Below the pieces are notes generated by a model. It did not search any database, had not been told where the DNA came from, and saw only the letters and a list, made by a program, of their open reading frames with translations. Below, piece after piece: positions 16,460-64,000 of a stretch of 64,000 nucleotides of DNA; within the stretch, counting starts at the first letter, position 1, and each line of letters opens with the position of its first letter. Source of the DNA: Amoebidium appalachense (Eukaryota > Protista > Ichthyosporea). The DNA lies in contig CAVNZM010000015.1 in the NCBI GenBank assembly GCA_963693365.1, forward strand, positions 4,099,502 through 4,163,501, in the 5' to 3' direction. The position numbers and the translations under genes are program-made.

Positions 16460-18442
16460 CCGCTAGACTAGGTGAGCCCCTGTCTCAAAAGGAAAGCTTG
16501 CGCCGGCTTGCTAGTATGAATCGATTTGGCCGGTGATACCACTGGAGACCCCCTCATAGACTCTGATAAGTATTTCTCGGAACTGTACTTTAAGATAGGA
16601 CCCCCGCTCAGAAACCTATTGTGTGGCCTGTAGACCCATCTATCCCCATAGAATCGATCCTCCCCTTTTTCAGTCCCGATACCATATGGTCTGTGATATC
16701 TAGTTATAGCTCTAGTAAGTCTTGTGGACCTGATGGACTTCCTGCCGGGTTTCGTAAAATCCTTGTTCCCTCCTACCCACAAAAGGAAAGTGATTGTGCT
16801 ATTAAACCTGATCTTACTATTATGTCAAGCTCTCTCTTTTCTTGGTGTGTTAAATGTGGACATGTCCCGTCATGTTGGTTAGATACCTTAGTGATCCCCA
16901 TAGTTAAGAAGGACTCTGAGGGCCCCATATCATCTTTTCGCCCATCTTTTCGCCCCATCACACTAACCCCGGGTTGTTCGTAGATTCTTTGAAGCTTGCT
17001 TAGTAATACTCAGGTTATTTGCACATCACCCTAGGTTTCAATCTATTCTTCACATACACCCATGCCAATCCGCTTTTCGTAAAAACAATTCATGTTATGT
17101 TCAAATAATGGCACTGCACGATTCTATGCTAGTTGGTGCACGATAATTTGGTTTTATTGATTGGAAAACTGCTTACGATTCTGTCTCCCCTGGTCTCCTA
17201 TGGGAAAAGCTTGCTGCACGGGGTGTACCACACTGCATTGGTGTTTTGTTAGAAGCACTCTTGTCTCAAACCTATGGTAGAGCTGTGGTTAATGGGCACC
17301 TTTCATATGGTTTTGCTCACACTAGAGGTCTCTTGCAGGGTTCATTGCTTAGCCCCTTTTTGTTTAACCTATTTATAGATGATTTGGCTGTCAAGATTTA
17401 TGCCGAAAATGATGACCCTATTAATAACTTTCCGCTCGGCTAAAATTTTTAAAGACACACCCCTCCATCCTTCTATTAGACTTACATTTGTTTGGACTTT
17501 TGTCTTCCTGGCATGTGAATATGGTTTACCCCTTCTCGCCACTTGGATCAAGAAAGGGAGAACTGAAGCGCTGAAACCCTTGGCAAATTTCGTTGAAGCA
17601 GAAGTTGCCTCCTTTCTATCTAACAACTGTTGTAAACCTGGGCCTGTAACGCTCTCGATATATGGTCTGGTCCCAATAGCTGCTAGAGTATCCCATCTCG
17701 CGCTGAAATTCAATAAGCACATAAGCCGCTTAAAGAAGTATTTGCCCTCCCACCCTCTCTTCTCTATCCGACCTGTCCCCTCCTCACCTCTCTCCTCTTT
17801 CCTTCCCTCTCTCTCTCCTTTTCCCCCGGGCACAAATACAAATAAACCCCGCAAAAGTGTGCGTGTTGACTCTGGACAGCCACTTACTTATTAGACATGT
17901 ACACAATCACAAGAGAATTACGCAATATAACAAATGGAAAAAGATACCACATGACACCAGACCCGATGAAAGCATACACCTTGAAAAACTAAGCCTTATG
18001 TCTCGTCTTATATATAATGACCGCCTTAATCATATTGCCAAATATGGCACTCGCAAATGTGTAACACCTAAATACATATTACCTTCCTGTAGAATTGGTC
18101 TTTCTCTAGCTGATGGTATTATTGGTCACATACCACGCTTTTACTGTACACGTGCTATACAGTGGAGATCTAATAAGTATAAGGTGGCATCGTTTGCATG
18201 CCCAAACAACACACACATACACCAGTTTAAACCGTGACGGTCACGCGAGGTGTATCTTGAAATGTAGTTTGATAGACCACATAATACCGCAACACACACA
18301 CGTCACAGTAACAACAGATACCCAGAAAGATAGCCTACCTGAAAATTACAACATCCTTGATTTTATACTAAACACGCGAAACTACGACCTGTTTATTAGA
18401 TGTATTGATTGGCTTGAGAAACACATCATTACAAAATTCTAG

Positions 18443-18504
<62 letters not shown>

Positions 18505-18774
18505 GTCACACACACACACACAACCAGCTGATACCGAGTGTCCCAAGGGAGCCCAAAAAAAAAAAAAAAAAAAAAAAAAAAAACGGGGAACCCCAATTAA
18601 TTGATTGCTCTTAGTCTTTATGGTGTCTCGTAGAGAAAGTAAACCCTGATATATAATCATCACCCGACAGCTATGTACGTGATCATGATATACCGCTGAG
18701 GGGATATTCCGAGCAAAAACACCCCATACCTGAGACTGGTCTCTCTTTGCCTCGAGTAAACAGCGTAAACCCCC
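16460..18774 (+). mobile_element. Non-LTR retrotransposon (LINE-type RT), 5'-truncated and decayed copy
   Basis: RT fragments KSCGPDG, LVIPIVKK..FRPITL, GFIDWKTAYDSV and RGLLQGSLLSPFLFNLFIDDL are broken by stops and frameshifts. A 302-bp deletion at ~17434 removes YADD relative to the copy at 62002-64000. The 3' tail matches the other copies. The 5' boundary is approximate. Confidence 0.9.
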
Positions 18775-19545
18775 ATGTATATCTCCTACATGCAGGATCA
18801 AAAATGGTTCCGAACGGTCGGTCCTTTTTTATTATAAGCGACACAGCAGATAGAGACGTGTTTTTTTGATGCAGATTTACGAGAAACAAGCAGCAACACG
18901 ACGTAACGGTTGGTACTACTTTTTTTTTTTTTTTTTTTTTTTTGTACAAATATGGCTATCCCGTGCACGGATCGAAACCTCCGGGAACGAGTGTATGTAA
19001 ACCTTTTCCACTAAATAGTACAGACATTCTCTTAAATAGGCTTGAAATACTACGACTGCTTTTAGGGGCAGGAAAAGGGTGAAAACCGATAGAAACGAAA
19101 AGGAAGTTTATTTTCATGTAGTATGGCTGCATATCATTCAAGTTTCATTGCTTGATTTAGATAGTCAAGTATGTGTGTCTCTGAATATTAAATCGAGAAG
19201 TCCGTGAAGATCTATCAAAGGCTGCCAAAATATTTTAATGTCCAATAAAGTTTCAAAGATATCTAAAAATATCCCAAAGAAAAAGAAAAAGAAAAGAAAA
19301 GAAAAAAAAGAAAGCTCTCCATATATTTATATGCATTTACAAGCAAGTCTCCGTGAATGTGGGCCAAACATAACCTTCATATTTTAGTCAACTTCCACAC
19401 AACTCTGCATGGCATACATTATTGGCCAAATGATCCGAACTGTGTCGTCTTGTATTTGAACAACCTTAACTCTCCATAGATATCCATATGATAATCCAAA
19501 CACTTCTTAACCATCGGATTTGTTTTTAAAATTAAGATCATCCAA

Positions 19546-22500
19546 TCAAGTTTCCTCCTCCATAATATTCTGCTGTTCACCCTGCTCCCGCTCTGACCCC
19601 CCCGAGTGCCTTTTCTGCTTTGGCCACAACAGAACACTGTATAGTGCGGCGTCAAAAATCCCCCCCAAATTCACCGTAATCGCCTGCAAAAACGCAAGCG
19701 GCACATTCGTACATCCCAAAACCACCGAATGAAGGACATAAACGGAATAAGGAATCCACTGAACGAAAAAAACGAATCCAAAAAACAGGAAAAATACGGC
19801 CAGTCTCTGCATCGCCTCTTCCTTCTCCGGATCGGGATCAGCAACGTGGGAGGCAGGTAGTTGCTCGCTCTCTCTTCCTCTTTCCCTGCCGGAAAATGGA
19901 ACCGCAAGAATAGACTCCCCCCACCACTTGAGAACCTGTAACACCACAAACTCAGCATCTTATCGGCCGACTTGGCATCCCTCACGCACGCACTGTGACA
20001 CCAACCCCCCCCCCCCCCCCCCCCCCCCTCCCCCCCCCTCCCCCCCCCCTCCCCCTCCCCCCCTTCCCTCCCGCTGCCCCCCTGAAAGAAAGAAAAGCAG
20101 GTGACAAACAAAAGGAATGAACCTTTCGCCTCCCCTCCCCCCTCCCCCCCCCCTCCCCCCCCCCCTCCCCCCCCCCCCCCCCCCCCCTCCGTCCCCCCAA
20201 AAAATAAATAAATAAAATAAAAAGAAAAAAAAAAGGAAAAAAAAAGGAAACATAAAAACAAGATACCCCCCCCCCCCCCCCCCACACACACACACAAGCG
20301 CGCGCGCACACACACACACACACACTCTCTCTCTCTCTCTCTCTCTCTCTCACGCACTCATACACTCATTGGGTCCTATGCTCTCACACCCTTGGGGGAA
20401 AAAAAAAGGAAAGGAAAGAAAAAAAAAGAAAAGAAAAGAAAGAAAACTCAAAAGGATGATCCGGAAAGGAAGAACGACAACAAGGAGAGAAAGAGAGAAA
20501 TAGGCTCTGGGCCGTAAAGGATATAATACTACTGCGGAGAATCTGTCGTTGAAAAGCGGGAAGATCAGAACTCATACCTTCTGTCCCTGATTCAATACTG
20601 GGGTACCGCTTCCACCACCGCTCGGAAAAGGCTGGGGATTTGGACTACCCTCGACTTGCACCGACAAATCATTTTGCACATTTGCAGAATTTCCTTCCTC
20701 GATAGAACCCCCCTGTGCCCTATTTTCACGATTAGCCGTCGTCGGAACCGGGCGCCTTACAAACGATTGCGATCCCAAATTTCGATGTGTTGATGCACCC
20801 CCCCTTAAAACGTGGCTCGATTGCACGTGGTGAGTTCCCCCGGCTAAACTCATTAACGTGCTCCGGTTGGTTTGTGCTTGTTGGGATTTGTTTAAGGTTC
20901 GCATTCCCAATGATTTTACAATAAGCACCATTGCCCAAATATGGCAAAATGCGCCGAAAAGGAGCGTCCCCAAGGGAAGAACGACGCTGAGGAGAAGAAG
21001 GAGAAATTTGCTGTGTTGCAGGCCACACCTATCCCGTTTTATTCCAAACATTCCGAGCAAATGCATCGGGAGGGTGAAAGCAAACGGAATTGGCCCCATC
21101 CATAAAAGGAAACCAAACATATATAGGCGATTGGTTGGCTTGTCTCCTTTAAGCGTACGAAGAAGAACAAAAGCGACCCAAGCCGTAGAAACGTGCTACA
21201 CAGAACGAACGTCTTGTTGGAAGTAGAGTCCGCTGTGACTAGGGTCGTCGTGGCGCGCTTGGGCGCTGACCCGTTTTTTTACTGCTTTCAGTGTGTTAAC
21301 TCCATGACTGAACTCCATGACTGAACTCCATGACTGAACTCCATGACTGAACTCCATGTCTGAACTCCATGACTTAACTCCATGTCTGCACCTGGCAGAG
21401 CCGTGGCTTATATACCCGTGGGGCAGCAGTCTGGAATGTAATCCGGATGCCAGGCGCTAATCGGATTGGTTACTTTCATTTAGAGATCTCTGGGACCAGT
21501 GAACCAATCGTTTGCAGTCAAAACACAATTGGCAACATTCCTCAACTATGCAGATGTGCATGTGGTGATCGAGTGTCAGCGTGTGTCTGTGTACACGGAA
21601 CCAATTGTAAAGCTAACATACACATATAGTGGAGTGAGCGTAAGTCTGCACTCCAACACCCCTACCCAATTGGAGAAGTGTACACACCACTAGAGAAGAG
21701 AGAGTGAGTGTGGCTACTTGCAGGGTAGACCGGGGTGTGCATTCCACTGTGGTGCTTGCCCCGCCAATGAAGTGGAATACTTGACGTTGATGTCGCAGGC
21801 TGCTGCGGATGGAGTTTGTGGAAGCGAAAGTCTCTACTTCACGGAAATACGCTCGCGGGTGTAGGGTACAGCCTAGAAGTCGGGTTCTGGCTCCTCCGTT
21901 CAAGGCGTCGTAGGGGACGTGAAGTTAGAGGCCGCGGTGTCGTGTCTGGGCCCATAACCCTGTTGGAAGTAGAGTCCGCTGTGACTAGGGTCGTCGTGGC
22001 GCGCTTGGGCGCTGACCCGTTTTTTACTGCTTTCAGTGTGTTAACTCCATGACTGAACTCCATGACTGAACTCCATGACTGAACTCCATGACTGAACTCC
22101 ATGACTGAACTCCATGACTGAACTCCATGACTGCACCTGGCAGAGACGTGGCTTATATACCCGTGGGGCAGCAGTCTGGAATGTAATCCGGATGCCAGGT
22201 GCTAATCGGATTGGTTACTTTCATTTAGAGATCTCTGGGACCAGTGAACCAATCGTTTGCAGTCAAAACACAATTGGCAACATTCCTCAACTATGCAGAT
22301 GTGCATGTGGTGATCGAGTGTCAGCGTGTGTCTGTGTACACGGAACCAATTGTAAAGCTAACATACACATATTGTGGAGTGAGCGTAAGTCTGCACTCCA
22401 ACACCCCTACCCAATTGGAGAAGTGTACACACCACTAGAGAAGAGAGAGTGAGTGTGGCTGCTTGCAGGGTAGACCGGGGTGTGCATTCCACTGTGGTGC

Positions 22501-23325
22501 GTGCCCCGCCAATGAAGTGGAATACTTGACGTTGATGTCGCAGGCTGCTGCGGATGGAGTTTGTGGAAGCGAAAGTCTCTAATGAAGTTAGAGGCCGCGG
22601 TGTCGTGTCTGGGCCCATAACCCTGTTGGAAGTAGAGTCCGCTGTGACTAGGGTCGTCGTGGCGCGCTTGGGCGCTGACCCGTTTTTTTACTGCTTTCAG
22701 TGTGTTAACTCCATGACTGAACTCCATGACTGAACTCCATGACTGAACTCCATGACTGAACTCCATGTCTGAACTCCATGACTTAACTCCATGTCTGCAC
22801 CTGGCAGAGCCGTGGCTTATATACCCGTGGGGCAGCAGTCTGGAATGTAATCCGGATGCCAGGCGCTAATCGGATTGGTTACTTTCATTTAGAGATCTCT
22901 GGGACCAGTGAACCAATCGTTTGCAGTCAAAACACAATTGGCAACATTCCTCAACTATGCAGATGTGCATGTGGTGATCGAGTGTCAGCGTGTGTCTGTG
23001 TACACGGAACCAATTGTAAAGCTAACATACACATATAGTGGAGTGAGCGTAAGTCTGCACTCCAACACGTCTGCCATAAGAAGCCAACACCATTGCACTT
23101 GTTCTTTAATATCGCCGCGGGATGGTGATTGCTTAAAGGAAGGCTGGATACTAATGTTGCAATCGCGGTGAAAATATCGGATGCACATATGTATGCGGGG
23201 AAGTATTGAACAACGGACATAGAGCCGGGGAGCATGTAATGACGGACGGCGGTAGCGAAAAGGATGGCAAGACAGGAGGTGAGACTGGCTGTCGCTGTTG
23301 TGTACACCGCTATCTGCATGGGCAT
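19546..23325 (-). pseudogene. 7TM receptor of cAR/Git3-like type (GPCR-A), interrupted by a TRIM insertion
   Basis: Exon 1 (23325-20578) is split at GFLWQT|FVLC by the element 21215-23067. A further 1-nt frameshift lies in a short homopolymer at 21189-21191. Exon 2 (19935-19546) encodes TM6-7 (RLAVFFLFFGFVFFVQWIP..NLGGIFDAALY). Seven hydrophobic segments and a long third loop; paralogous to GPCR-B (shared QYFPAxIxxxD). Confidence 0.8.
21215..23067 (-). mobile_element. Tandem-array TRIM (non-autonomous copia-type LTR element with three LTRs)
   Basis: LTRs 21215-21658, 21961-22403 and 22624-23067 (443-444 bp), each TGTTGGA...TCCAACA. 5-bp TSD CGTCT at 21210-21214 and 23068-23072. Internal regions of 302 and 220 bp are non-coding. 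On the minus strand: PBS GGTTATGGGCCCAG (21946-21959, 22609-22622) and PPT GGGTAGGGG next to the LTR. Each LTR holds 7 copies of the 13-bp repeat AACTCCATGACTG. Confidence 0.95.
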
Positions 23326-25717: not shown

Positions 25718-26874
25718 GAGAGCCTGGGGGGGGGGGGGGGGGGGGGGGGAGGGGAGGGGGGACTTACATGGTTTGATAGCACGTTGGTGTCCATCGTAGT
25801 TTGAGGCTTGTTGTGGTTCTAGTAGTCAATGATACGGTCGCTGCGGTGCAGCTCTCTATGTGTGTGCGTGTATCTGTGTGTGTGTGCGGGTGGGTGTTGG
25901 TGTGCACGCCTGTGTCTCTTCTTTTGGTAGTGGTGTGTACGTGTGTGTGCATGCTGGGGGAGAAGGAGGGGGGGGGAGGGGGGCTAGGCTATGAGCAATA
26001 AGATATCGATTATCCCGCGATTATCATTGATGGGGTGTCAATATTTGTACTTACGGCACATTGAATATTAGATCGATATGATCGGGCTAGATTGGTGTCG
26101 GACGCAATATTGCTGGCAGGCGATCTTCCCCAGTGGAAAATTTTTGATAAAAACCGTCACGGGAATTTATTACAAGTTGTGGCGGTCTCTTAATAATCGG
26201 TATTATAACAGTTGCTTTTGATATCAACTAATAAACACAAGAAGTTTTCCTAGGTTCAAGCTAGGAGTTAAGGCTGCATATTAATGTGTATAGCATCGAG
26301 TTTCTTTCTTCCCCGAGATGCACATAAGATTAGATAAGCAGCAACACCCATGCCGTGCCATTTAATGCCATGTCGCGTCTGAAATGATATACACATGCAC
26401 CTACACAGCAATACCGCTGAACAATCGGTGAGCAGACGATATTCCTTGATTTTTCCCACTGTACAACACCCCTAATAATGTTAACGATAATATTTGCATA
26501 GTCAGAATTAGTACAACCTGTTTTGCCTTTTGATAACGACAAGCATATTACTCAGCGTAGAAATGTTATTATGCTATATTCCTACTTTTTTGTTGTTTTA
26601 TAAAACTTTTTTTTTGGCGCGCAAAACCTTCCCGCCCAAATTTCCATATTTGGCTAATCGTGCGATCGATCGCGCAAAAATCATTGGTCCATACGTAATT
26701 TTTCGATTTGCGATATTCCTACTTTTTTTGTTGTTTTATAAAAACTTTCATGATTAAGACATGCATACATTGGCATATCGGTAGTTAAGCAAAATCAAAT
26801 CATCTCAACCACCAAAGCTTATTACGATACTCCATAAACCCTAAAATTTCATAATTACATTACTTTATCACATG

Positions 26875-30506: not shown

Positions 30507-31918
30507 TGTTTTCTTTCATCAGGCCCGAACGAGGCCAACTTTCCAACAAATCACTCTGAGAAAAAAAAAAACTGAAAAAAAAACAGCAACGTTAACGATT
30601 TTCATGCGTCGCAACTCGCCGAGGCTTCAGCTTGGCTTGTGACGTACGTCGACTATAAATAGGAGAGTCATCACTGGCCCAATCAGGCGGGCGGCAAGTT
30701 GTGCAAGATTTGTGCATTCCATATTTATAAAAAGCACGTACGCGTCACACACGTGGCACATGGTCCAAAATCATTACTTCTGACCCAAAAAATCGAAAAA
30801 CTCAGCCTCTGTACAGCTAGTGCAAGGAAATTACGCAAGAATCTTCCGTGTTTCTGCCTGAAATCTTTCCAGTAATATAAACTGGACCAACAAATAAGGT
30901 GCACGTGGGTGCGTGTACATGTGAGCACAATCATTGTACGTGCGCCGCCACAGCCGTCGGAATCGCCAGTGATCGATGATAGTGGACATTCTTTTAACCA
31001 GATTCCGACCAATAGGACAACACCCCTGAAGGGCCCGGGTACCATATCAGGAGCGGGCAATTTTTGAATTCTCCCTCCCCGGCCCCGCCGGGGAAAATTT
31101 GAGGTTTTTGGACCTCAAAGAAGTCAAATCCTGCAAAATCCACTACCGGGAGGCCAAAAAGGGTGATTTTACAAAAAAGGAGGGACATACATGAAAAAGA
31201 GAAAATGGGCGAGTTCAGTGGGCTGCCGATAAGTATATTTCGTGCTGGGCCGGTATACATGCTGCCGTGGTTGTTGCTGTAGACGGCAGTATGGCATCGC
31301 ATGTGTCACGTGACCTGCACGTGAATGCGACCATGTGCAGGCACTGAGTCTAGGGGGATTTGTATGTGTGTTTTGGAGCACCGACAAGGCAGAGCCAGGG
31401 TGAGGGATGTGTAAACATGGAGTTTAGGGAGATCGTGCTGCTATTGTAACATGTGCACAAAACAGCCACGTGCACCGGCACACTCCGGTGTACAGAACAA
31501 TAATATGCACATGCGTCACTGTAATATCATGTATGCGCATGCCGCACAAGGTTTAGGAGACCACCACAGTATATACTATTTTCTTTTGGTTGATATCCAT
31601 GTAGGAATGGTGTGTTGCAGTTGTCATGATCAGCCTGAGGCAGGCACGTGCACTCACTGAATCACTAGAACTCATGAATAAAAAATACATTCGCTAAAAA
31701 CGGCAAGGTAAATTTGGGGCCAAGCTATTATTTCCCCCTTTTAAACGTTTTTTTAGCTCCAAGAACTTCGACGCCAAAATTTCTATATTTGGCCATCGTA
31801 TATGATAATGAACACGTGTACTTAAATTAAAGTAGTTATATAAATATGAGCGGCCCGTTACAAATACAGTGACGAAAAACAGTGACCCACGAGCAGTTTT
31901 TCTTTCTATCCCCCCCCC

Positions 31919-31966
<48 letters not shown>

Positions 31967-33252
31967 AGACACACACACCACCACCACGGTGACCACCACC
32001 ACCACCACCACCACCACTCACCCCTTAAAAAAACCACACACATACGTGCACGTGTACACACACACACAGAACACCACCACCACCTCCACTGGACCCCATT
32101 TCCTCGTTGTTTTCTTAAGCCTTCAGACCAGTCCTGCACACTGGAGTTAAACAATTGAATTCACCTAGGCTGACATGCATCCACCCCCGCCTTCCACTTC
32201 CCTCCCCCCCACCCCCACCCCCCACCCCCCCCACCCCCACCCCCTCCCCCTCGATGAAGAAGGGCCCCCGTAAGCCTTGGGGGGGGGGGGGGGGGGGGGG
32301 GAGAGGGGGGGAAGGGGGGAGCTCTTGAGCCTCCGGGTAGGGAAGTGGGGTCCGGGGATCCGGAGGGAGGGAGGGGGGGGGGGGGGGGGGGGAAGGGGCA
32401 TATAATATTGGGCCTAGATATCATAGTATGGGGCCCCGGGGGAGGGAGAGGTGGGGGGGGAGGGGGGAGGATCCACGGGAAAGACCTTTAGGTGCATGTT
32501 CTTATTTATACCCCCTTCGAATCATCCCCCCTCTCCCCCCTCCCCCCCTGAGTGCAGGCCGTGACGTAGCTACGATAACCCTGCAGAAGGCAACAAAAAT
32601 GTATTAATTACTAGCACTATACATGTGTTCATAGTGCAGCTTGCACCACGTATGATCTCAGCAACTTTAAAGTAGTCACAAAGTTTAGTTATTTTCATTA
32701 TTTTCATTGCTCTGAACTCTATTACTCTGAAATGATCACCGTGCATGTGCCGCAAGATAACAACCCTATATGTGTGCAGCTGCTGCCTGCAGGTTAGACT
32801 CGCTGAAAAGACAATTGTCAGTGTGCATCCGACGCTTGCAGCTGCAGCTAGCCTCTGCAACATTAATACTTGCCAAGTGAATGCTCTTACACTTGATCAT
32901 CATTCACTCAAAAAACCGAGGACCGACAGATTAAATATTAATGTCGATCCGAATGATCAGCAAGTGTCTATGCGTACTACTATATATACACACACGTAAA
33001 ATGCGAAGCTATCAGTTACAAGGCACACCTGCTGCACTGGCACACATACACATACACACCGGCAGATCGATGCTGTCAAAATTTACTTTCATGTACTTCG
33101 TAGGTCCGACACAGGTGCACATGAACACGTACATATGTACAAGCCGCGCACACACCACACCACACATACACACACACACACACACACTCACACACACACA
33201 CGCACACACGCACACACGCACACACGCACACACACACACACACGCACGCGCG

Positions 33253-33326
<74 letters not shown>

Positions 33327-33765
33327 GACACACACACACACACACACATCACTGGGTGCGCTCGCTGGGGATTAGTTTTTTGGCACGCTGTTGACTTTAT
33401 CGTGTGTTTATTATTTGCTATTTATTGGCCAGCGGCCAACATTTAAAAATATACTATATACCTAAAAATAGATACTGACTACGGCCAGCAGACATTATAC
33501 ACCTTCCAGGACACATTAACACCAATAGTCTAACACACCATACTCTCGATCACAAAGAATTCCTAACAAACAGAGAAAAGTGCAAAGGCTCTGTACTATT
33601 ACTCAGATTCTAAATTTTAATTCTTTACAGTAAACTTCGGAATGAAAGCTAGCCCCCCCCCCCCCCCCCCCCCCCCCTCCCCCTAACATGACTGTACGAA
33701 GAACAGGTATAACTTGAAGCACTACAACACATATGAGATCCGTTACATTGGTGTACATTCCAATA

Positions 33766-35422
33766 TTAGACACTAGTTTGGCTACTCTGACTACTCTGAG
33801 ATCCTGATTGGCTGCCTGCAGACTTGCGGCCACGATTACTTTGCTTTCGATCGTGCCATTGCAGCTGCGTCTCTCCAGCAGGTGGCAACGCCAGGCCCAG
33901 CACAGCAGATGCACGAGAAGGGGGTGGGAACTGCCCACCAGCCGAGGGCTGGCCCACATGGCCCAAGTAAGGATGGGGACCGTGCTGCGGCAGTAGCCCA
34001 GGCATGGGGAAGGCAGGGCCGGGCTGAGGCGGCATGATGCCCCACGGTGGGGGCCAGCCATGTGGGTGGTGCGGGCCTGGATGGGGTGCAGGGGGCATGT
34101 GCGGCACATGGCCCTGCTGCATGTCAAGCGCGGGTGCTGGTGGCATGGCATCCTGATTGGCTGCAACCCAACGTGGGCAGCTCTTGGCCCGATTGGAGCC
34201 GGGGCAGCCCTTGCCCTGGCGGCCACACGTCTTGCAGGTCTTGGGGGCTCTCTGGGGTGGCTGCATAGGAGGGGGCACCGGCAAATCCATCTGCAGGGGC
34301 CCCTCAGGGCCAATGTTGCGATGCTTTTTGCCCACTAGCATGGGCAAGGGCCGCTCACGCTGCGCCCCTGCATCGACACCGTCTGGAACAGGGAGGGGTG
34401 GCAAGGGGGCAGGCCGTATGGTTGCTGGCACAGCGTCTGCCCTCTCCTCGCGCATACGCTTGCGGTGATCTGCCAGGCCCTCGTGTGTGGAGCGCTGTGC
34501 ATGTGCCGTCTGCCAGGTCTTCCACTTGTCGAAATGCTTCTTGATGTAGGCCGCATCCTTCATGTAGATTCCCCCAGCCACAGAGGCAGCCTTGTTGAAG
34601 TCTTGGGCCAAAGCCTCGAACAGCTGGCCGTTGGGCTTTGCATGTGCCTTGTAGGTGCCCAGGAGCAGCGTGCTGAATAGCTTGCGCTCCTGAGGGGTAA
34701 GCACCGGAAGGAAGGGGATGGCCACATGTTGCTTCTGCGCCAGGAACTTGTAGTCGCCCCTCAGTGCAGGGTCCGGCTGTGGTGCACCACGCGCCACCTG
34801 GTTGCCCCCCCCCATGGCAGCACCGTCACCCTCCTCGACCTCACAGTCCTCTGGCCCGCCCATCACGCCATTGGCTGCAGGCTCGATGTTATCAGACGGA
34901 GGTGGGGGTGCGGGCACCGCAACTGGCTCCTGCGCCGGGGCATTGGCCACACAGGAGAGCAGGGCAAAGTTGAAGTACTCCTCCGGTAGCTTGTAGCAGC
35001 CTACGGGTACCCACTGGGGGTCGAGGTGATGGCCGTACAGCATCAGCGCCAGTGCCTCCATGTCGTCAACAATCCAGGGGCTGTAGTGGGGGGGCCCCGA
35101 TGCCTGGCCCAGGCGGTTGCGGTAGTGTGCACGCAGGTTGTGGAGGTGGCGCCTATTGGACATGGTGGCGTCCAGCAGGCGCAGCGACATGCGTGTGGCC
35201 CCAAAGTGGGTGGCCAGGGGGTTGTGCACTGCCCCCTCCACCTCGTTGGTGCCCCGGATGCAGCGGTAGCGCATGAGCCCATCTGCGTCGGCAGTGGTCT
35301 CGTAGTAGAGGGGCAGGCCGGGGGGGTCCGACAGACAGCCATTTTGGGCGTGTTCGAGCAGCGACTGTGGGGGCACAAGCAAACATCAGAGAGATGGGTG
35401 GGTGGTGGTGGTGGTAGTGTGT

Positions 35423-35471
<49 letters not shown>

Positions 35472-35553
35472 GGGGGGGGGATGGGGTTGCTAAGGAAAAA
35501 AACGAGCAGGGAAAGGCAAAAAACAACTGGCTAGGCAGCAAGGGCCGTGCGGG

Positions 35554-35621
<68 letters not shown>

Positions 35622-36211
35622 ATGTTTGGGGGGGGGGGGGAGGGGGGGGGGGGGGGGGGAGGCTAGGGTGTGCGTGTGTGTGCAGATGAACCAAGGATGA
35701 CAAATAAGCGAAGAATCTTTTCTGTGGTGGTGGAGTTGTTGGGCGCCTGCAGGGGGAGGGGGGGGGGGGGGGGGGGGATGTTGCCTCGAGTCTTTCAAAG
35801 CCATCCTTCTTGAACAGAGGCTTGCCATCCGGTCCGGGCGGCACATCCTTGTAGATGTTTTTGAACTCCACCAGCCGCGAGACCAGCGTGTATGGGTCGG
35901 GAATAACCCGCCGGATGCGCTCCATGAAGTAGCTCAGGTCGCCGCCCTTGAGCTCGGTTTCAATGTCGATGCCCTTCTGCTCCAGCACCCCCTGTGAGGC
36001 AGGATGCCAATATTAATTTACTACGCACACTGCAATTTGGGTTTGGTAGACTTTGATACCTGCCGTTATTGTAGGACCCCTCCCCTCCACCCCCCCCATC
36101 TTCTCCCCCAACACAAGTAAAAAATGCATGTGGCTCTTTCCCCCCACAACCCTACATTATTTCTCTCTAGGCATATGAATAACCCCCACTCTCCTCCCCC
36201 CCCCCCCCCCC

Positions 36212-36252
<41 letters not shown>

Positions 36253-37281
36253 TTGCCCCCCCTCTCTCTGAGGCTCAGGCTCTCTCTCTTCCCTCAGAAG
36301 TTTTGTCGAAGGTGTGCATGGTTGTGGGTGGAATGGTGAGTGTGTGCTAACGAGTGTATGTGTGTGTGCGCGTCAGTCACGCATGTTGTTGTTGCCGTTT
36401 TTTTTATTTTTATTTTTTATTTTTTATTTTGGGGGGGGGGGGGAGGGGGGGGGGGGCACCTTCACATGTCCGTAATCCTCTTCATTCCACACAAATATTG
36501 CCTCGCTGAGTGCGCGTGCGTACTCAGCCCTGCGGGGGTGTGACTTGTACGTGCCGTCCGCCGTGTTTGCAATGGAGTGGAAGGCGTCATTCAGCACAGT
36601 CTGCCACACCACCTCCCCAGGCGGTGCCTGGCCCAACATGCCCTCTCTGGGAGCTGCCTCGGGTCCCCCTGGGGCTGCCTCAAGGCCCCCCGGGGCTGCC
36701 TGGGGGTCCTGGGGGGGTGCCTGTGGGCCGGCAAGGGGTTGCTGCTGCTCGGCAGGGGGAGGGGCTGGGTCAGGGACCACCGGCACCTCGGCACCTGGGT
36801 CCGGTGGGGGCTGAATGGGCCGTAGCCACTGCAGGTGCACCATCAGCTCAAAGGGCGGCGGACCCAGCTCTCCCAGGGTCTTGCCCTTGTCGGGGCCAAA
36901 GGGCACCTGCATGGCCGGCGACAGCACCTGATCCACCCGCACCACTGCATGCTTCTTGCCCACCTTCATGCCCCCCCAGCGCTCCGGCTGCACAGCCAGC
37001 ACCACCCCGGTGGCTGCTGCAGCATGTGGGCCCCGCCGGGGCACAATCTCAACCCCTTCACCGAGTGCCTTTGCATGAAGCCGCGCTGCATGTCATAGAG
37101 GGAAGCAAAAAACTCAGCCAAAAAGCCACAGCACCAACGTTTTTCTCTTCGCTCCACAAAAATCAAATGCATATTCCTTAGCAACCCCCTTCCCCCCCCC
37201 CCCCCCCCCTTCTCCCCTCCCCCCCCCCCCTCTCCCAGTGCCCAGCTTGTGTGGCACTTGCACGTGTTAACAGTGCTATAG

Positions 37282-37312
<31 letters not shown>

Positions 37313-39641
37313 ACCACCACCACCACCAATCACCCCCTCCTTTGATAGCCACCCGACACCCAGCATAACACAACTGGAACACTGGCCCATGTGGTCAGCC
37401 ACCCCCCCCCCCCCCCCCCCCCCCCCTCCTCCCCCTCCCCTCTCCTCTGGGGGGCCCACAATCTTTCTATATCTGGCATAAGCACATAAGCACTGGGGCA
37501 AAAAGCAGGTGGGATACACACCTGACAGGTTTGGCCTATCGACCACGGCCGAGTAGACCTGCAGGGACGCATATGCATCAAGGGCAGCGTAGGTGGCCTG
37601 CACCTCTGATAGCGGCTCGTGCCAGTTGGAGCATCGAACAAGTGCCGGCTTGGGCAGCTTCTTGCCTATGACCTGGGCAGTGATGTCGGCCAAGCCCCGG
37701 GCCGCAGAGGTGATAGCTGCACGGGCATAGCAGAACCGGCCCAGCTCCAGATAGCTGGCCACAGGGGTGCCGTAGTCCTTGTTGAGGTGGGCCGAGTCCG
37801 TGCCGATCTGCTTGCCCACCTTGATGATGCTGGGGTCCCTAAGCAGCGCAATCAGCTCGTCCACCAGCCGCGCGGGCGGGCTGTGGTTGGGGCCCATGCG
37901 TGCCAAGTGGAAGATGTACACGGCCCGTGCGGTGGCAATCTGCAGCGTGCAAACCTTGGACCGCGCCTGGCCCACCCGATAGACCCACTCGCAGTCCAGC
38001 CCCACCACGCGGTGCTGCTGCCCCTCCAGGTCGGCACGAATGGCCGCTGTAGCCACCACCGCCCCCTGGCAGTCGGTGTACACCGGCTTAGGGTAGTTGG
38101 CCGGCAGCTCCAGCCCAGGCAGACCGTCCGTCACGCTTACCAGCGCAGCCTCGTTCAGACGGACGGGGCATTTTGGCCGGGCTAGGGTTGGAAACATGCG
38201 CTCAACAAACGCCCGGTCTTGGCAGCACCGATCTGTGTAGAAGAAGGCCGGGCCCTTGCTGTTGAGCGCCGCCGTGGTGGCAGAGATGCGCTGGATCACG
38301 GGCTCAATCTCCTGGTGGCTGCAGTCCCGTGTAAATACCTGCGCCCGGATCTCTGGGGTGCCGCACTGTGTGAGAGGGCATCTCCGAGCAGCCATGCATG
38401 TTCTAGCTTCCCTTACCACATGGCCCTTCACGAGACTTCAGTGCCCACACAATCCTTTCCCCCTCCCTCCCCCCAAACCCATGTGCCCACATACTTTCCC
38501 CTCCCTCTCCCCCAAAACCCTTCCCCCTCCTTCCCCCCAAACCCATGTGCCCACATACTTTCCCCAGGCCTCCCTTTCCCCCAAAATCTTCCCCCCCCCC
38601 CCCCTCCCCCTAAACCCATGTACCTACAATCCTTCCCCCTTCCTCCCCCTAAACCCTTGTGATCACAATCCTTTCCCCCTCTCTGCCTTCCCCCCAAACC
38701 CATGTGCCCACGATCCTTCCCCACTCCCCCCTCCCCCCAAACCATGGGACAGCCCTCCATATGGCACCTACTGCCTCCCCCCCCCCCCCCCCCCCCCCCC
38801 ACCCCACCCCGGGCCTCTTGCCCTCTCTACCTTCAACCCCGACGGTGGTGTCTCTCCCCCCCCCCCCCCCCCCCCCCCCCCCTGCATCCCTTGCAATCAC
38901 TGGCCCCTACTCCCATTCTGCTTGGCCCCCCCCCCCCCCCCCCCCCCCCGATTCCCCGCCAAAAGAAAGCTCCACCCCAGCCCACCCCAATCTCTACCCA
39001 GCAAAAACACATACACACATATCTGGAGCTTCCTAGTTTTTGCTCGACAGGGCAAGAATTGTCCCCAAAACCCACATACTACAAACCTCTACTCACAGTG
39101 TGCCACCTCATTAAATGTGGAGCCTAAGAGATTTCAGGCCCTAGAGGGGGGAGGGGGGGGGGGGGGGAGGGGGGGGGGCGTGTGTGTGTGTGTGTGTGTG
39201 GGGGGGGGGGGGGGGTGGGGGGGGGGGGGGGGGGAGGGGGGAAGGGGGCCTGGGGGAGAGTGGGGGGAGGGGGGAGAAGAGGAGGGACCACACACCGCCA
39301 AGCTCGTTTACACAAGTCCATAGGCCTCGGTACAGAGGCTCCCCATTGATGCCGGTGAGCTTCCCAATTTGGAAGGTGTGGTCGGCCTTGAGCACGTTGT
39401 TTACGGGCTTGAGCTGCGTGTCCAGGCTCTGGTACTTTGCCGTGCGGTCGCTGAACTCAGTATACACGGCACTCAGGTATTTGCCTGAACCCCAAGTACT
39501 GTTAGAACTCCACCACCCTCCCATCAGGACCATCCCCCCCATTCCCTCTAGTCCCTCGTGTTCATCTCACCTCTCTGTATTTTCGTAAGTCTGTATGGCT
39601 TTTCCCATCTCAAAAACGCTACACACCCATCTCCGGCCGTT

Positions 39642-39698
<57 letters not shown>

Positions 39699-39875
39699 CC
39701 CCGCCTCCCGGCGCGCGCAAACCCTCCAAGTCATTGCACCAACTTTCACCTTCTTTCCCCTTTGTGCCCCATCTGCAGTTTGTCCCCTGCACGTCCGTTT
39801 GCCCTTCCCCCCACACCCTCCTGCCACTACTATAATAACCATTAAGTACCGCCACCAAGATCCAGTCTACCACCA

Positions 39876-39931
<56 letters not shown>

Positions 39932-40074
39932 CTCTCCACCTCCTTTCCCCCAACACACACAGACACACATGCGCACACCCACCATCTAATTTCAGGCATA
40001 ACAGTTCTCCACGATTTCCCAAGCACACTCACTGGTACATGGACCGTTATGCTTTCACCCCTCTGATGATCCCT

Positions 40075-40106
<32 letters not shown>

Positions 40107-40181
40107 CACCACCACCACCACCACCACCACCATGACTGATTGCCACCACCACCACCTAATCCATCACCATGTCCCCCCCCC

Positions 40182-40229
<48 letters not shown>

Positions 40230-41622
40230 ACGGACCCACAAGTACACGCACACTCACAGGCGCACATCCACCACCACACATCCACCACCACCATAATAGA
40301 AACTTATTGACCACACTTCCAAAACCCATTTCCAAGTCCCCCCCCCCCCCCCCAAAAAAAAAATAAAAAAAATAAAACAAAACCCTACCAAGCCAACCCA
40401 AAAAATGCCCAAGCACGTGCATACAAAACAATGGGGACCATTTACACACCCAAAATGCAGTGCACACTTGCCTGAAGGCACATGTCCAGCGTAACCATTT
40501 TTGTCACCAAACGCCGAGAACTTAGCCGCCTGCTCCTCTGGGGGAAGTTCTGTCAGGCGCTGGTCGTGGGGGCGGAAATCGTTACGCTTTTTGAGTTCAT
40601 ACTTGGTCCAATGCAGCGCCCTCGAGTAATACAGGAGCCGCTGCTCGTCGTATCGCTGCTTGTGGAGCTCCGAGAGGAGGGTGGCAAAGGCGTTTGGGCC
40701 CACACCTTTGTCTGCCAGTGCACGCAACAATGTTACCACCTTTAGGTCGAGCCCACTGCGGTGGCTAAGGTAGGCCGGAAACTGATCACGCATGAAGAGT
40801 GGAAGGCGTTTAATTGTCTGGGGGTTTGTGCCGGCAAAGTTTTTTTTGCATGTGTCACAAAAGTACCGGGCCGTGATAATGTAGTAGCAGCTGTCAAAGT
40901 CGATAACACGCCGTCCTACGGGGTTGCTCATGAACCCATTGCGAGAAGTACGGTGTGGGTTGGGGTGGTTGTGGGGGTCCACGTAGTGATCATCGAAGGG
41001 GCACGGCACCATGAAACCGGGAGACAACCTTTCCGGAAGCCAGGCAAAACATCTGGGTTTGTAGAAAGGCGCTGGATCGCCCCCAAATTTAAAGCCTATA
41101 ATGGGAGGTGGAAGATGCCACCCCACAGGCGTCTTCTCATCTTTGAGACTCTCTTTCACTGTGTGCAGGTGCGACTTGATTGTTTCGCCCGCCGCGTCAG
41201 AAAACTCCTCTCCACCGTCATCCCCGTCCGTATTATCTTCTCCCTCTTCCTCCCCTTCATCCTCGTCTACCCGGTACGCATCTGCTGCTGCATTTAGCAA
41301 AGGTTCCTCGTCGGGTTGCACCTGTATGTCTGGTGGGTGTGGAGCAGGGGCCCGATCCATTTCTCTTGGTAACGAATGGACGCTACCTGCCTCAACTACA
41401 CGGGCCCTTATGTCGGCGGCCTTAGATAGAGGGGGCTGTTCGGGTTGTACGTTTACGTTTAGTTCCTGCAAAACAGCTTTGTTTGCCGTCCCAAAACCTG
41501 CAAAGTTCGCTAAAGGCTGAACAAATGCAGCATCTTTTTTTTTTGCGCCCAGCTCCCTCCCTAGCTCCGCCTGTTTTATGCCCAGGGCGCTGTGTTGTGC
41601 CCTTAGGGCAGCCTGGCTTCAT
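33766..41622 (-). mobile_element. DUF6729-type DDE/DxxH transposase-like gene with an embedded DEDDy 3'-5' exonuclease (~1530 aa, 6 exons); element ends not resolved
   Basis: Exons 41622-40472 (one-base frameshift in the A10 run at 41535-41544; GC donor), 39484-39296, 38352-37522, 37085-36460, 35991-35785 (GC donor) and 35364-33766. Motifs in order: GGAREGAGRKKK; CP..RRVIDFDSCYYIITARYFCDTC..FPAYLSHRSGLD; KADHTFQ; FYTDRCC; exonuclease VGLDCEW/LQIAT/KVGKQIGTD/SNW..YAALDA; NDAFH; GCLSDPPG..RCIRGTNEVEGAVH; C-terminal helical domain and CKTC..CPG..C zinc knuckle. Confidence 0.8.
38440..38750. repeat. C-rich minisatellite (CCCCAAACCCATGTGCCCACA...) near the 3' end of transposase intron 2
   Basis: AAACCCATGT(G/A)CC recurs at about 38475, 38539, 38612 and 38696. 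Confidence 0.7.
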
Positions 41623-42089
41623 TTTAAACACTTGGGGCCTGGCCCCCTGCCCCCCTAGTGCGACTACGTTACCGCAAACATTCCCGTATTCCAGTGTGCT
41701 CGGCAATGCTGCTCATGGCCTTCCCGGACTGGTTGTGACCAGTAAAGAGCGCGCCAATTCCTGACCGCCGCCTACAGCAGTGTATGATCTGTTATCCATA
41801 TTCGGCAAAAGGGGTCTTGCCCAACCAATGGCTTGAATCCTTGTAACTTTGCTTTATCCATATAAGGTTAGCTGAACACCCCCCCTCCAATCATACCCCC
41901 CCCTTCTCTCTAGTAGTAGCTCCTGGCATGCCGCACCCCCCTACATTACTGTTTGTACTACTAGTCTGTTTACACTTCGAGGCAGACTTGAGGAGGCCGC
42001 TCTGAACTCTGTGTTCAGAGTCTGAACTCTGTGTTCAGATGGCCGTGGGCAGGCGTACACTCCCGGAGGGGGAGCGAGAGAGACAGGAG

Positions 42090-62342: not shown

Positions 62343-64000
62343 TGTGTGTGTGTGCGCGTGCGCTATAATTTTGTAGTGATGTGTTTCTCAAGCCAATCAA
62401 TACATCTAATAAACAGGTCGTAGTTACGCGTGTTTAGTATAAAATCAAGGATGTTGTAATTTACAGGTAGGCTATCTTTCTGGGTGTCTGTTGTGAATGT
62501 GACGTGTGTGTGTTGCGGTATTATGTGGTCTATCAAACTACATTTGGCGATACATGACCGGTTAAACTGGTGTGTGTGTGTGTTGTTTGGGCATGCAAAT
62601 GATGCCACCTTATACTTATTAGATCTCCACTGTATAGCACGTGTACAGTAAAAGCGTGGTAATTGATCAATAATACCATCAGCTAGAGAAAGACCAGTTC
62701 TACAGGAAGGTAATATGTATTTAGGTGTTATACACTTGCGAGTGCCATATTTGGCAATATGGTTGAGGCGGTCAGTATATATAAAACGAGACATAAGGCT
62801 TAGTTTTTCAAGGTGTATGCTTTCATCGGGTCTAGTGTCGTTTGGTATCTTTTTCCATTTGTTATATTGCGTGATTATCTTGTGATTGTGTACATGTTTA
62901 ATAAGTAAGTGGCAGTCCAAAGTCACACACACACTATTGCGGGGTTTATTTGTATTTGTGCCCAGGGGAGAAGGGGAGAGAGAGGGGAGGAAAGAGGGGA
63001 GAGGTGAGGAGGGGACAGGTCGGATAGAGAAGAGAGGGTGGGAGGGCAAATACTTCTTTAAGCGGCTTATGTGCTTATTGAATTTCAGCGCGAGATAGGA
63101 TACTCTAGCAGCTATTGGGACCAGACCATATATCGAGAGCGTTACAGGCCCAGGTTTACAACAGTTGTTAGATAGAAAGGAGGCAACTTCTGCTTCAAGG
63201 AAATTTGCCAAGGGTTTAAGCGCTCTAGTTCTCTCTTTCTTGATCCAAGCGGCGAGAAGGGGTAAACCATATTCACATGCCGGGAAGACAAAAGTGCGAA
63301 TAAATGTAAGTCTAATAGAAGGATGGAGGGGTGTGTCTTTAAAAATATTAGCCGAGAAGAAAGCTAACCGCTTACGAGCCAACTCTACCCTCTTTTCGAC
63401 CATATGGGGAAACATAACACCAACAGAATCAACCGGAACACCAAGATATTTGTATTCTGGAACTATAGGTACAGGTTTAGATGATAATGTAAATGTGTGT
63501 AAATTGTTAGCTATATCAGGTACAAGAACACCACATTTGTCTATGTTAAGGATCATAAGGTTTGCCTTGCACCACTCTGACACTACATCGAACAATCTTT
63601 GCAGGCGTCTAGGGGTACGGGCAAGGAGGGACAGATCATCAGCATAGAGAAGTGCAGGCGGAAAGTTATTAATAGGGTCATCGTTTTCGGCGTAAATCTT
63701 GACAGCCAAATCATCTATAAATAGGTTAAACAAAAAGGGGCTAAGCAATGAGCCCTGCAAGAGACCTCTAGTACGAGCAAAACCATATGAAAGATGCCCA
63801 TTAACCACAGCTCTACCATAGGTTTGAGACAAGAGTGCTTCTAACAGAACACCAATGCAGTGTGGTACACCCCGTGCAGCAAGCTTTTCCCATAGGAGAC
63901 CAGGGGAGACAGAATCGTAAGCAGTTTTCCAATCAATAAAGCCAACATATTGTGCACCAACTTGCATAGAATCGTGCAGTGCCATTATTTGAACATAACA
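62002..64000 (-). mobile_element. Non-LTR retrotransposon (LINE-type), young copy extending beyond the right edge
   Basis: Uninterrupted RT ORF followed by (CA)n, a short spacer, an internal (A)n and a ~200-bp tail ending GTAAACAGCGTAAACCCCCC. Confidence 0.93.
62363..64000 (-). CDS. LINE reverse transcriptase, C-terminal part of the ORF
   Basis: FIDWKTAYDSV, RGLLQGSLLSPFLFNLFIDDL, LLYADD, NIDKC, YKYLGV, and C-terminal CPNNTHTHQFNRSCIAKC..ILDFILN. No stops over 540 aa. Confidence 0.93.
   Translation of the reverse strand, partial: CYVQIMALHDSMQVGAQYVGFIDWKTAYDSVSPGLLWEKLAARGVPHCIGVLLEALLSQTYGRAVVNGHLSYGFARTRGLLQGSLLSPFLFNLFIDDLAVKIYAENDDPINNFPPALLYADDLSLLARTPRRLQRLFDVVSEWCKANLMILNIDKCGVLVPDIANNLHTFTLSSKPVPIVPEYKYLGVPVDSVGVMFPHMVEKRVELARKRLAFFSANIFKDTPLHPSIRLTFIRTFVFPACEYGLPLLAAWIKKERTRALKPLANFLEAEVASFLSNNCCKPGPVTLSIYGLVPIAARVSYLALKFNKHISRLKKYLPSHPLFSIRPVPSSPLPSFLPSLSPSPLGTNTNKPRNSVCVTLDCHLLIKHVHNHKIITQYNKWKKIPNDTRPDESIHLEKLSLMSRFIYTDRLNHIAKYGTRKCITPKYILPSCRTGLSLADGIIDQLPRFYCTRAIQWRSNKYKVASFACPNNTHTHQFNRSCIAKCSLIDHIIPQHTHVTFTTDTQKDSLPVNYNILDFILNTRNYDLFIRCIDWLEKHITTKL

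What the first reader, a model, noticed from the sequence alone, without database searches (positions are those of the whole stretch)
33766..41622. Transposase-like protein with a 3'-5' exonuclease inserted inside its DDE catalytic domain
Seen: a spliced ~1530-aa ORF in which the putative catalytic residues D (KADHTF), D (FYTDRCC), DxxH (NDAFH) and E (RGTNEVEG) bracket a complete WRN/EXD2-like DEDDy exonuclease (DCEW..D..YAALD, acidic residues retained). The exonuclease sits between the second Asp and the DxxH motif. There is also an N-terminal GGxRxGAGRK DNA-binding-like motif, a DUF6729-like Zn domain and a C-terminal zinc knuckle. Established: D-D-(C/D)xxH-E with a TN..E signature is the Mutator/IS256-type fold, and characterised members carry no built-in proofreading-type exonuclease. 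I recall similar uncharacterised fungal proteins, so the architecture may not be unique, but I know of no described mechanism. Inference: a transposon class that trims its own ends, flanks or target DNA. This is the best candidate here for an undescribed system.
Basis: partly seen in the sequence, partly recalled or inferred. Interest (0 to 1): 0.85.

Follow-up and report, generated by a model that had tools for sequence, protein, structure and literature searches.

The report
Dada transposon with built-in exonuclease
This is a spliced, repeated jumping gene of the protist Amoebidium whose cut-and-join enzyme carries a DNA-trimming domain, a design already published in 2013; the new part is that its relatives have ends and end-to-end joints like a bacterial element that moves through a circle, so this family likely moves in a way not yet shown for eukaryotes.

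Summary
Six exons give a 1533-aa protein that matches an Amoebidium transcript protein at all but three residues plus the frame break, one extra A in this copy. D418, D487, D890xxH893 and E1044 bracket an intact WRN-like DEDDy exonuclease. This layout was published for Dada transposons of Laccaria and Ectocarpus (Kojima and Jurka 2013, PMC3706591), and the scan has met it on other DNA at least six times. The element is a repeat with a sharp end at 41941; its other end is only a candidate (33354); no small-RNA gene target is seen. What is not in the papers searched: soil-metagenome relatives have short inverted ends and 8-bp target duplications (6 of 32 testable loci; control 0 of 320), and 4 of 4 end-to-end joints hold exactly 6 nt. 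That is the geometry of the bacterial copy-out/paste-in element ISCth4, the only transposase among the model's top 50 fold matches. One joint lies in a clade with a dead exonuclease, so the exonuclease is likely accessory. Verdict: variant of a known kind, interest 0.42.

The parts
33354..41941 (-). Likely extent of the element (8588 bp); right end firm, left end a candidate
   Evidence: Contig depth of three DNA runs stops at 41941; left end from a 7-bp inverted match and a 7/9 flank match
41623..41941 (-). 5' end and leader of the element; terminus reads GGGGGGTGCGGCATGCC on the minus strand
   Evidence: Depth falls from thousands to 0 behind 41941 in X2 and X3, X15 contig ends there, other flanks follow in X14 and X2
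40472..41622 (-). Exon 1: ATG, GGxRxGAGR motif, acidic stretch, DUF6729 zinc domain; GC donor
   Evidence: motif also in 6 other family proteins
41535..41544 (-). A10 run that breaks the frame in this copy
   Evidence: one letter fewer in X10, X14, X2 and part of X3 (table 4)
40596..41159 (-). DUF6729 match (residues 155-342); ligands C207, H212, C255, C258 (Cys in place of H212 in 60 of 63 homologues)
39296..39484 (-). Exon 2 with the first catalytic Asp, D418 (39383-39381)
   Evidence: D in 101 of 108 homologues; first strand of the RNase H core in the model
37522..38352 (-). Exon 3: second Asp D487 (38233-38231) and the WRN-like exonuclease (Pfam match 38023-37547; D566, E568, D632, Y701, D705)
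   Evidence: WRN exonuclease Z 27.7, rmsd 1.7, 184 aligned
36460..37085 (-). Exon 4: small beta-rich domain of unknown role, Pro-rich linker, DxxH motif D890-H893 (36588-36577)
   Evidence: no Pfam match for the beta domain
35785..35991 (-). Exon 5: helical insertion domain; GC donor
33766..35364 (-). Exon 6: catalytic E1044 (35238-35236), C-terminal helical region, CCCC knuckle (34236-34177), Pro-rich tail, stop
   Evidence: E in 106 of 108 homologues
33354..33765 (-). 3' untranslated and subterminal region; candidate left terminus GGGTGCG at 33354 (alternatives: 33388-33391, or beyond the CA repeat near 32560)
   Evidence: (table 8)
33345..33353 (+). Left flank CACATCACT, 7 of 9 like the right flank; not a clean duplication
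   Evidence: 62 of 40991 positions reach 7/9; 2 of 700 G-run starts
41942..41950 (+). Right flank TACATTACT; no tRNA, snRNA or 5S sequence

Best explanation
This is a spliced, repeated Dada-type DNA transposon of Amoebidium whose DDE transposase carries a WRN-like exonuclease, and it likely moves by joining one of its ends to a point 6 nt outside the other end and then inserting that joint, with the exonuclease likely acting as an accessory trimmer of freed 3' ends. Shown: gene structure, domain order, kept catalytic residues, repeat status, right end, Dada kinship (about 0.9). Shown in relatives only: short inverted ends starting GGC, 8-bp target duplications at unrelated sites, 6-nt end-to-end joints. 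Inferred (about 0.55): the core nicks one end, the freed 3'-OH attacks 6 nt beyond the other end, giving a circle or a head-to-tail dimer as in IS256/ISCth4; a second round nicks both ends at the joint and inserts them with an 8-bp stagger. Inferred: the exonuclease, next to the active site, resects the 3'-OH left on the flanking donor strand at the nick, which would hinder reversal and help release or repair; it improves the reaction but is not required.
For: Layout identical to Dada-1_LB, -2_LB, -1_ES. Profiles of the three non-exonuclease blocks match fish protein P0204 at E 5e-27, 2e-16, 5e-33; P0204 has Dada's C-x2-C-x9-H-x8-C finger; D1-D2 spacing is 69 in both, 68 in Dada-U6_DR. Model pLDDT 76, core and exonuclease mostly above 90; ISCth4 transposase 6xg8 aligns from model residue 10 to 725, across the insertion, to chain 134-393, which holds D175, D241 and E348 (Z 14.0, rmsd 4.1, 248 aligned). 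Inverted ends plus 8-bp duplication in L013, L014, L023, L026, L055, L056, 6 of 32 testable loci, control 0 of 320; a seventh across L050/L047. Joints with 6 nt in L020, L051, L052, L061, four families, four different spacers; control 0.5 joint-like hits per pass and none of 6 nt in 10 passes. ISCth4: 8-bp duplications, best integration from a 6-bp spacer. Fish Dada show one-ended insertions and carry a 6-bp flank that replaces the target 'by an unknown mechanism'. Exonuclease kept whole in 83 of 94 homologues with an intact core; core and exonuclease distances correlate (Mantel r 0.71, 118 sequences).
Against: No joint, clean duplication or clear inverted end was found for the window's own element, and it sits about 3 substitutions per site from the families that show them. 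The joints come from assembled contigs, which cannot tell circles from chromosomal head-to-tail dimers. Six more loci have both inverted ends and no duplication within the contig (L002, L018, L024, L031, L042, L050); collapsed assembly would explain it but was shown for one only. ISCth4 may be nearest simply because few structures of this group are solved. Eukaryotic Mutator-like elements are reported to act like hAT and Transib (title of Liu and Wessler 2017, seen in the reference list). L061, L024 and L031 keep ends and core with a dead exonuclease. The 83 of 94 count is biased upward because the query held the exonuclease. Active-site distances could not be measured on the model.
Confidence: 0.5

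Rival explanations
1. Same element, but it moves by ordinary cut-and-paste like eukaryotic Mutator or hAT elements; the exonuclease cleans the cut 3' ends (the published suggestion), and the 6-nt joints are side products such as local re-insertion beside an end.
For: Inverted ends with 8-bp duplications are typical of cut-and-paste elements. PMC3706591 proposes 3'-end processing. Tandem fish Dada copies separated by 6 or 0 nt are published.
Against: Plain re-insertion beside an end should leave 8 nt or a variable gap, not 6 nt in 4 of 4 joints of four families; it does not explain the carried 6-bp flank of fish Dada.
Confidence: 0.35
2. A target-specific Dada of the fish and Perkinsus kind, inserted in a multicopy small RNA gene that the libraries do not recognise.
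For: Dada kinship; the region 32560-33150 beside the left end is itself a deep repeat in X2 and X3; two of three flanks seen begin TACAT, though that flank was shown because it matched.
Against: No tRNA or Rfam small RNA near either end; three flanks behind 41941 differ from each other; relatives insert at unrelated sites.
Confidence: 0.08
3. A domesticated single-copy host gene derived from Dada.
For: Transcribed, five introns; a domesticated Dada exists in carps.
Against: 73 and 135 variant contigs lie on 446 bases of the end, with main contigs at depth 2680 and 7067 against 5-170 for variants, a sharp end and several flanks; all catalytic residues kept, whereas dDada has lost them; this copy has a frame break. 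Contig depth is not a copy number.
Confidence: 0.03

Closest known systems
Exonuclease-bearing Dada families Dada-1_LB, Dada-2_LB (Laccaria bicolor) and Dada-1_ES (Ectocarpus siliculosus); Kojima and Jurka 2013, PMC3706591
   Same: DEDDy exonuclease between the second Asp and DxxH with all acids kept; introns; N- and C-terminal zinc fingers; size in the 4.7-11 kb range. By eye the first exonuclease motif matches Dada-1_ES (GLDCEW) and the L056 family matches Dada-2_LB in 16 of 18 residues of one block.
   Different: New host lineage (ichthyosporean). Fingers are C/H/C/C and CCCC here, not CCCC and CCHC. In the text read, the paper defines no ends or targets for these families; relatives found here have inverted ends, 8-bp duplications and 6-nt joints.
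Target-specific Dada lineages of fish, Daphnia and Perkinsus (Dada-U6, -U1, -tA, -tL and others; PMC3706591, PMC8869645)
   Same: Homologous DUF6729, D-D and DxxH-E blocks; D1-D2 spacing 68-69.
   Different: They lack the exonuclease (DxxH 27 residues after D2 in P0204, 403 here), have no terminal inverted repeats, make 6-7-bp duplications and sit in snRNA, tRNA or 5S genes; none of that target rule is met here.
ISCth4 / IS256 family, bacterial copy-out/paste-in (PMC7780238, PDB 6xg8)
   Same: RNase H core with helical insertion and C/DxxH; fold match Z 14.0; imperfect inverted ends, 8-bp duplication and 6-nt joint as in the relatives studied here.
   Different: Bacterial, about 400 aa, no exonuclease, no zinc fingers, helix-turn-helix binding domain; no sequence-level match.
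KolobokD (PMC9587614)
   Same: C/DxxH transposon lineage that encodes a DnaQ-type 3'-5' exonuclease proposed to degrade intermediates.
   Different: DEDDh (TREX-like) and not WRN-like DEDDy; Kolobok superfamily with TTAA duplications.
KDZ / Zisupton (PMC12730594, PMC11343200)
   Same: 8-bp duplications, some with inverted ends, common in fungi.
   Different: No KDZ Pfam match in six proteins scanned; passages read name no exonuclease.

Membership tests
Dada superfamily (protein-defined) | DDE triad with DxxH after the second Asp, homologous to Dada transposases | tested here: met
   the comparator P0204 is judged a Dada by the motif spacings printed in PMC3706591, since the paper's alignment file could not be read
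Dada superfamily (protein-defined) | N-terminal CCCC zinc finger | tested here: met
   Positions align; three Cys kept, second ligand is His here and Cys in 60 of 63 homologues
Dada superfamily (protein-defined) | C-terminal CCHC zinc finger | tested here: inconclusive
   C-x2-C-x6-C-x8-C here and similar in fungal homologues; same place and last spacing, Cys for His
Dada, exonuclease-bearing branch (Dada-1_LB, -2_LB, -1_ES) | DEDDy exonuclease between D2 and DxxH with all four acids | tested here: met
Dada superfamily | Repeated, near-identical copies; length 4.7-11 kb; introns | tested here: met
   Repeat status from contigs; about 8.6 kb; five introns. No genome was held to count copies
Target-specific Dada lineages | Insertion inside a snRNA, tRNA or 5S gene | tested here: not met
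   None at the window's ends; no tRNA in 56 of 80 loci scanned, no Rfam match in 14; split genes could be missed
Target-specific Dada lineages | 6-7-bp target duplication and no terminal inverted repeats | tested here: inconclusive
   Window copy: no clean duplication, weak inverted match. Relatives: not met, they show inverted ends and 8 bp
IS256 family / copy-out/paste-in route | End-to-end joint with a 5-6-nt spacer and 8-bp duplication | tested here: inconclusive
   Met in relatives; not seen for the window's element
IS256 family / copy-out/paste-in route | Single-strand figure-eight and free circular intermediate that integrates | not testable with these tools
   Needs biochemistry or circle-enriched reads
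KDZ / Zisupton | KDZ transposase domain (PF18758) | tested here: not met
   No such match at E 0.05 in P0006 and five homologues
WRN/EXD2-type DEDDy exonucleases | ExoI-III acids and Tyr, WRN-like fold | tested here: met
   activity untested

The most novel reading that the evidence does not exclude
Exonuclease-bearing Dada elements are a eukaryotic superfamily branch that transposes by bacterial-style copy-out/paste-in: one end attacks 6 nt outside the other, the element leaves as a circle and lands with an 8-bp duplication, and the captured WRN-like exonuclease processes the nicked donor in place of bacterial replication restart. The same carried 6-nt spacer would explain the unexplained target replacement and one-ended insertions of fish Dada.
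Probability: 0.3. Interest if true: 0.75.

Novelty: new variant of a known kind. Interest (0 to 1): 0.42.

Why it matters
The domain layout itself is known and only adds a host lineage. The ends matter more. Dada is defined in print as lacking inverted ends and targeting small RNA genes; its exonuclease-bearing branch appears to break both rules and to show the 6-nt joint and 8-bp duplication of IS256-type copy-out/paste-in. If that route holds, it would be a eukaryotic case of a pathway known from bacteria, would give a mechanism for Dada's odd target replacement, and would give the exonuclease a definite substrate. An intact, spliced transposase sequence from a culturable protist (P0006) makes all of this testable in vitro.

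Tried and rejected
No whole genome was held, so copies could not be counted or aligned. No RNA holder was listed on record; X10 and X14 are guesses, and their spliced contigs plus the EukProt proteins are what shows splicing. Exact and near inverted or direct repeats between the two end regions: nothing convincing; TACATT at 31686 and TACATTACT at 26856 have no inverted end beside them. The element's end was not found in JGI metagenomes; the joint pattern was not found in viral contigs; the three viral hits match the exonuclease only. Rfam matches in the window are repeat-driven miRNA models below their cut-offs. Loose ends at 41767-41933 could suggest ragged ends, but the table favours such exceptions, so I draw nothing from them. 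The shared TACAT flank in X2 is a selection effect. Bases 41955-42085 had no contig in four runs; a hole proves nothing. Joint-like hits in L080 (3 nt, inside the reading frame) and L031 (7 nt, 144 bp outside its end) were dropped as not being ends. The L051 7-bp hit of the strict search comes from its terminal overlap and was dropped from the duplication count (7 hits, 6 kept); the lenient search gave 8 of 32 with control 6 of 99. The DUF6729 domain folded well alone (pLDDT 90) but had no fold match (best Z 4.2; no Foldseek hit at E 0.001). No solved transposase matched by sequence profile. Intact core and intact exonuclease were not significantly associated (Fisher p 0.39). No paper held the term DUF6729. 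KDZ and domesticated-gene readings rejected as above.
Full report
Observation. Reading the region and enumerating splice sites gave a six-exon minus-strand gene from 41622 to 33766. The start codon is out of frame with the rest of exon 1 because of an A10 run at 41535-41544; with that position left open the product is 1533 aa. A homologue search with exon 3 returned a 100% identical transcript protein whose cluster of 18 EukProt sequences is labelled Amoebidium parasiticum. Its member P0006 is 1533 aa and differs from my model at three residues and the break position. Contigs of run X14, a guessed RNA run, join exons 1-2-3-4 and 4-5-6; the two joints listed are absent from DNA runs X2 and X3; X10, X14 and X2 have one A fewer in the run. 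An assembled contig does not prove a single molecule, but every junction is supported.

Protein. Pfam finds DUF6729 and DNA_pol_A_exo1 only. A full HMMER search gave 220 clusters at E 1e-30 or better. Of 156 homologues examined, 108 span the core; 94 keep D418, D487, D890, H893 and E1044; 83 of those 94 keep all five exonuclease residues and 10 keep two or fewer of the four acids. Named homologues with the same layout come from an aphelid, a chytrid and agarics. An AlphaFold2 model of residues about 385-1533 (P0001, 75 sequences, mean pLDDT 76.4) puts D418 on the first strand, D487 after the fourth strand and E1044 on the helix after the insertion. The exonuclease matches WRN (Z 27.7, rmsd 1.7, 184 aligned), and the only transposase in the top 50 is ISCth4, aligned from both sides of the insertion (Z 14.0, rmsd 4.1, 248 aligned). 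This supports a reassembled RNase H core; I could not measure side-chain distances.

What it is. PMC3706591 (parts 1-3 of 4 of the text read, supplements S1 and S3 read, figures and the alignment file not available) describes Dada transposons and states that those of Laccaria and Ectocarpus encode a DEDDy exonuclease between the second D and DxxH. A profile search reached a stickleback protein, P0204, with the paper's zinc-finger spacings; profiles of the three non-exonuclease blocks match it at E 5e-27, 2e-16 and 5e-33, with D1-D2 spacing 69 in both. So the protein is a Dada transposase of the exonuclease branch. The scan's index lists seven earlier Dada notes on other genomes, six with the exonuclease; I saw them after forming this reading. 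The Amoebidium genome paper (PMC11244446, passages only) does not mention Dada.

Ends in the window. On 41640-42085, 73 contigs of X2 and 135 of X3 were laid; main contigs have depth 2680 and 7067, variant ones 5-170; all cover stops at about 41941, where a low-depth contig of X15 also ends. Different letters follow that point in X14, X2 and the window. This is the end of a repeat, not a single-copy gene, although contig depth is no copy number. The left end is unsettled: contigs start at 33388 and 33391, the stretch 32560-33150 is also deep, and 33354 offers a 7-bp inverted match with a 7/9 flank match. No tRNA, snRNA or 5S gene lies at either end.

Ends in relatives. A metagenome scan kept the best 80 of 225 related stretches; they look fungal by their homologues, but are unlabelled. 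Of 32 with all domains and enough flank, six have about 20-bp imperfect inverted ends starting GGC and exact 8-bp duplications, each different (L013, L014, L023, L026, L055, L056); shuffled control 0 of 320. Six others have both inverted ends without a duplication in the contig; for L050 the partner flank lies in L047. No tRNA was found in the 56 loci scanned and no Rfam family in 14. Four contigs of four families hold right end, 6 nt, left end (L020, L051, L052, L061); L051 closes on itself and L061 closes through L076; two other joint-like hits are not at ends; shuffles gave none with 6 nt in 10 passes. By eye the L056 exonuclease is close to Dada-2_LB.

Mechanism. PMC7780238 (passages) reports for ISCth4 8-bp duplications and best integration from a 6-bp joint formed by one end attacking beside the other. 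The relatives match that geometry. Fish Dada show one-ended insertions and a carried 6-bp flank that replaces the target, left unexplained in PMC3706591 and discussed in PMC8869645 (parts 1-3 of 5 read); a joint intermediate would account for both. I therefore commit to end-to-end joining followed by insertion, at about 0.55 for the route and 0.5 overall; cut-and-paste is the main rival at 0.35. The joints may be chromosomal dimers and not free circles, and none was seen for the window's element, which lies about 3 substitutions per site from those families (FastTree on 126 core sequences rooted on P0204). The exonuclease has travelled with the core (Mantel r 0.71, 118 sequences), but a clade of 11 with support 0.99 includes forms that have lost the acids, among them L061 with a joint and L024 and L031 with inverted ends. 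It is thus likely an accessory trimmer of freed 3' ends; that WRN-type domains act on nicks and recessed 3' ends is from my own knowledge, not from a call.

Novelty. The layout is known since 2013, and KolobokD is a second precedent (PMC9587614, passages). Inverted ends, 8-bp duplications and 6-nt joints for this branch were not found in searches; subscription papers, Repbase entries and the supplement of PMC8869645 were not seen and may hold some of it. PMC5751038, PMC12730594 and PMC11343200 were seen as passages only. Verdict: real, correctly read, a variant of a known kind; interest 0.42, rising to about 0.75 if the copy-out/paste-in route is shown.

Noticed in passing
window 40472/39484 and 35785/35364: Two of five introns have GC donors; intron 1 is bounded by a 9-nt direct repeat, so its cut site is ambiguous in the contigs.
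   Followed up: partly
P0007, P0011, P0013, P0014, P0017 (EukProt isoforms): Assembled isoforms retain introns; some stop after DxxH and lack E1044, leaving the exonuclease without a full core. Could be unspliced RNA or a regulatory form.
   Followed up: no
window 36787-37083 (-): A confident beta-rich domain of about 90 residues follows the exonuclease in most homologues; no Pfam match. Not folded alone.
   Followed up: partly
window 40473-41204 (-): The DUF6729 zinc domain folds confidently alone; its structural class is open.
   Followed up: partly
window 32560-33150: Deep, variable repeat in X2 and X3 beside the left end; a separate repeat or part of the element.
   Followed up: partly
window 62366-64000 (-) and 17093-18778: Reverse-transcriptase frame (RVT_1, E 1.7e-22) with a 92-96% identical inverted partial copy; a young non-LTR retrotransposon family.
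   Followed up: partly
window 21215-23068: Tandem repeat of about 700-bp units, 99-100% identical.
   Followed up: no
L075 3150-4989 and L068 1614-3272: Insertions of 1.7-1.8 kb inside copies of the L013 family; the L075 one has 183-bp identical direct repeats.
   Followed up: no
P0056: 3352-aa Podochytrium protein with three repeats of OTU protease, exonuclease and DUF6729 matches; likely fused tandem copies of a Dada that carries an OTU domain.
   Followed up: no
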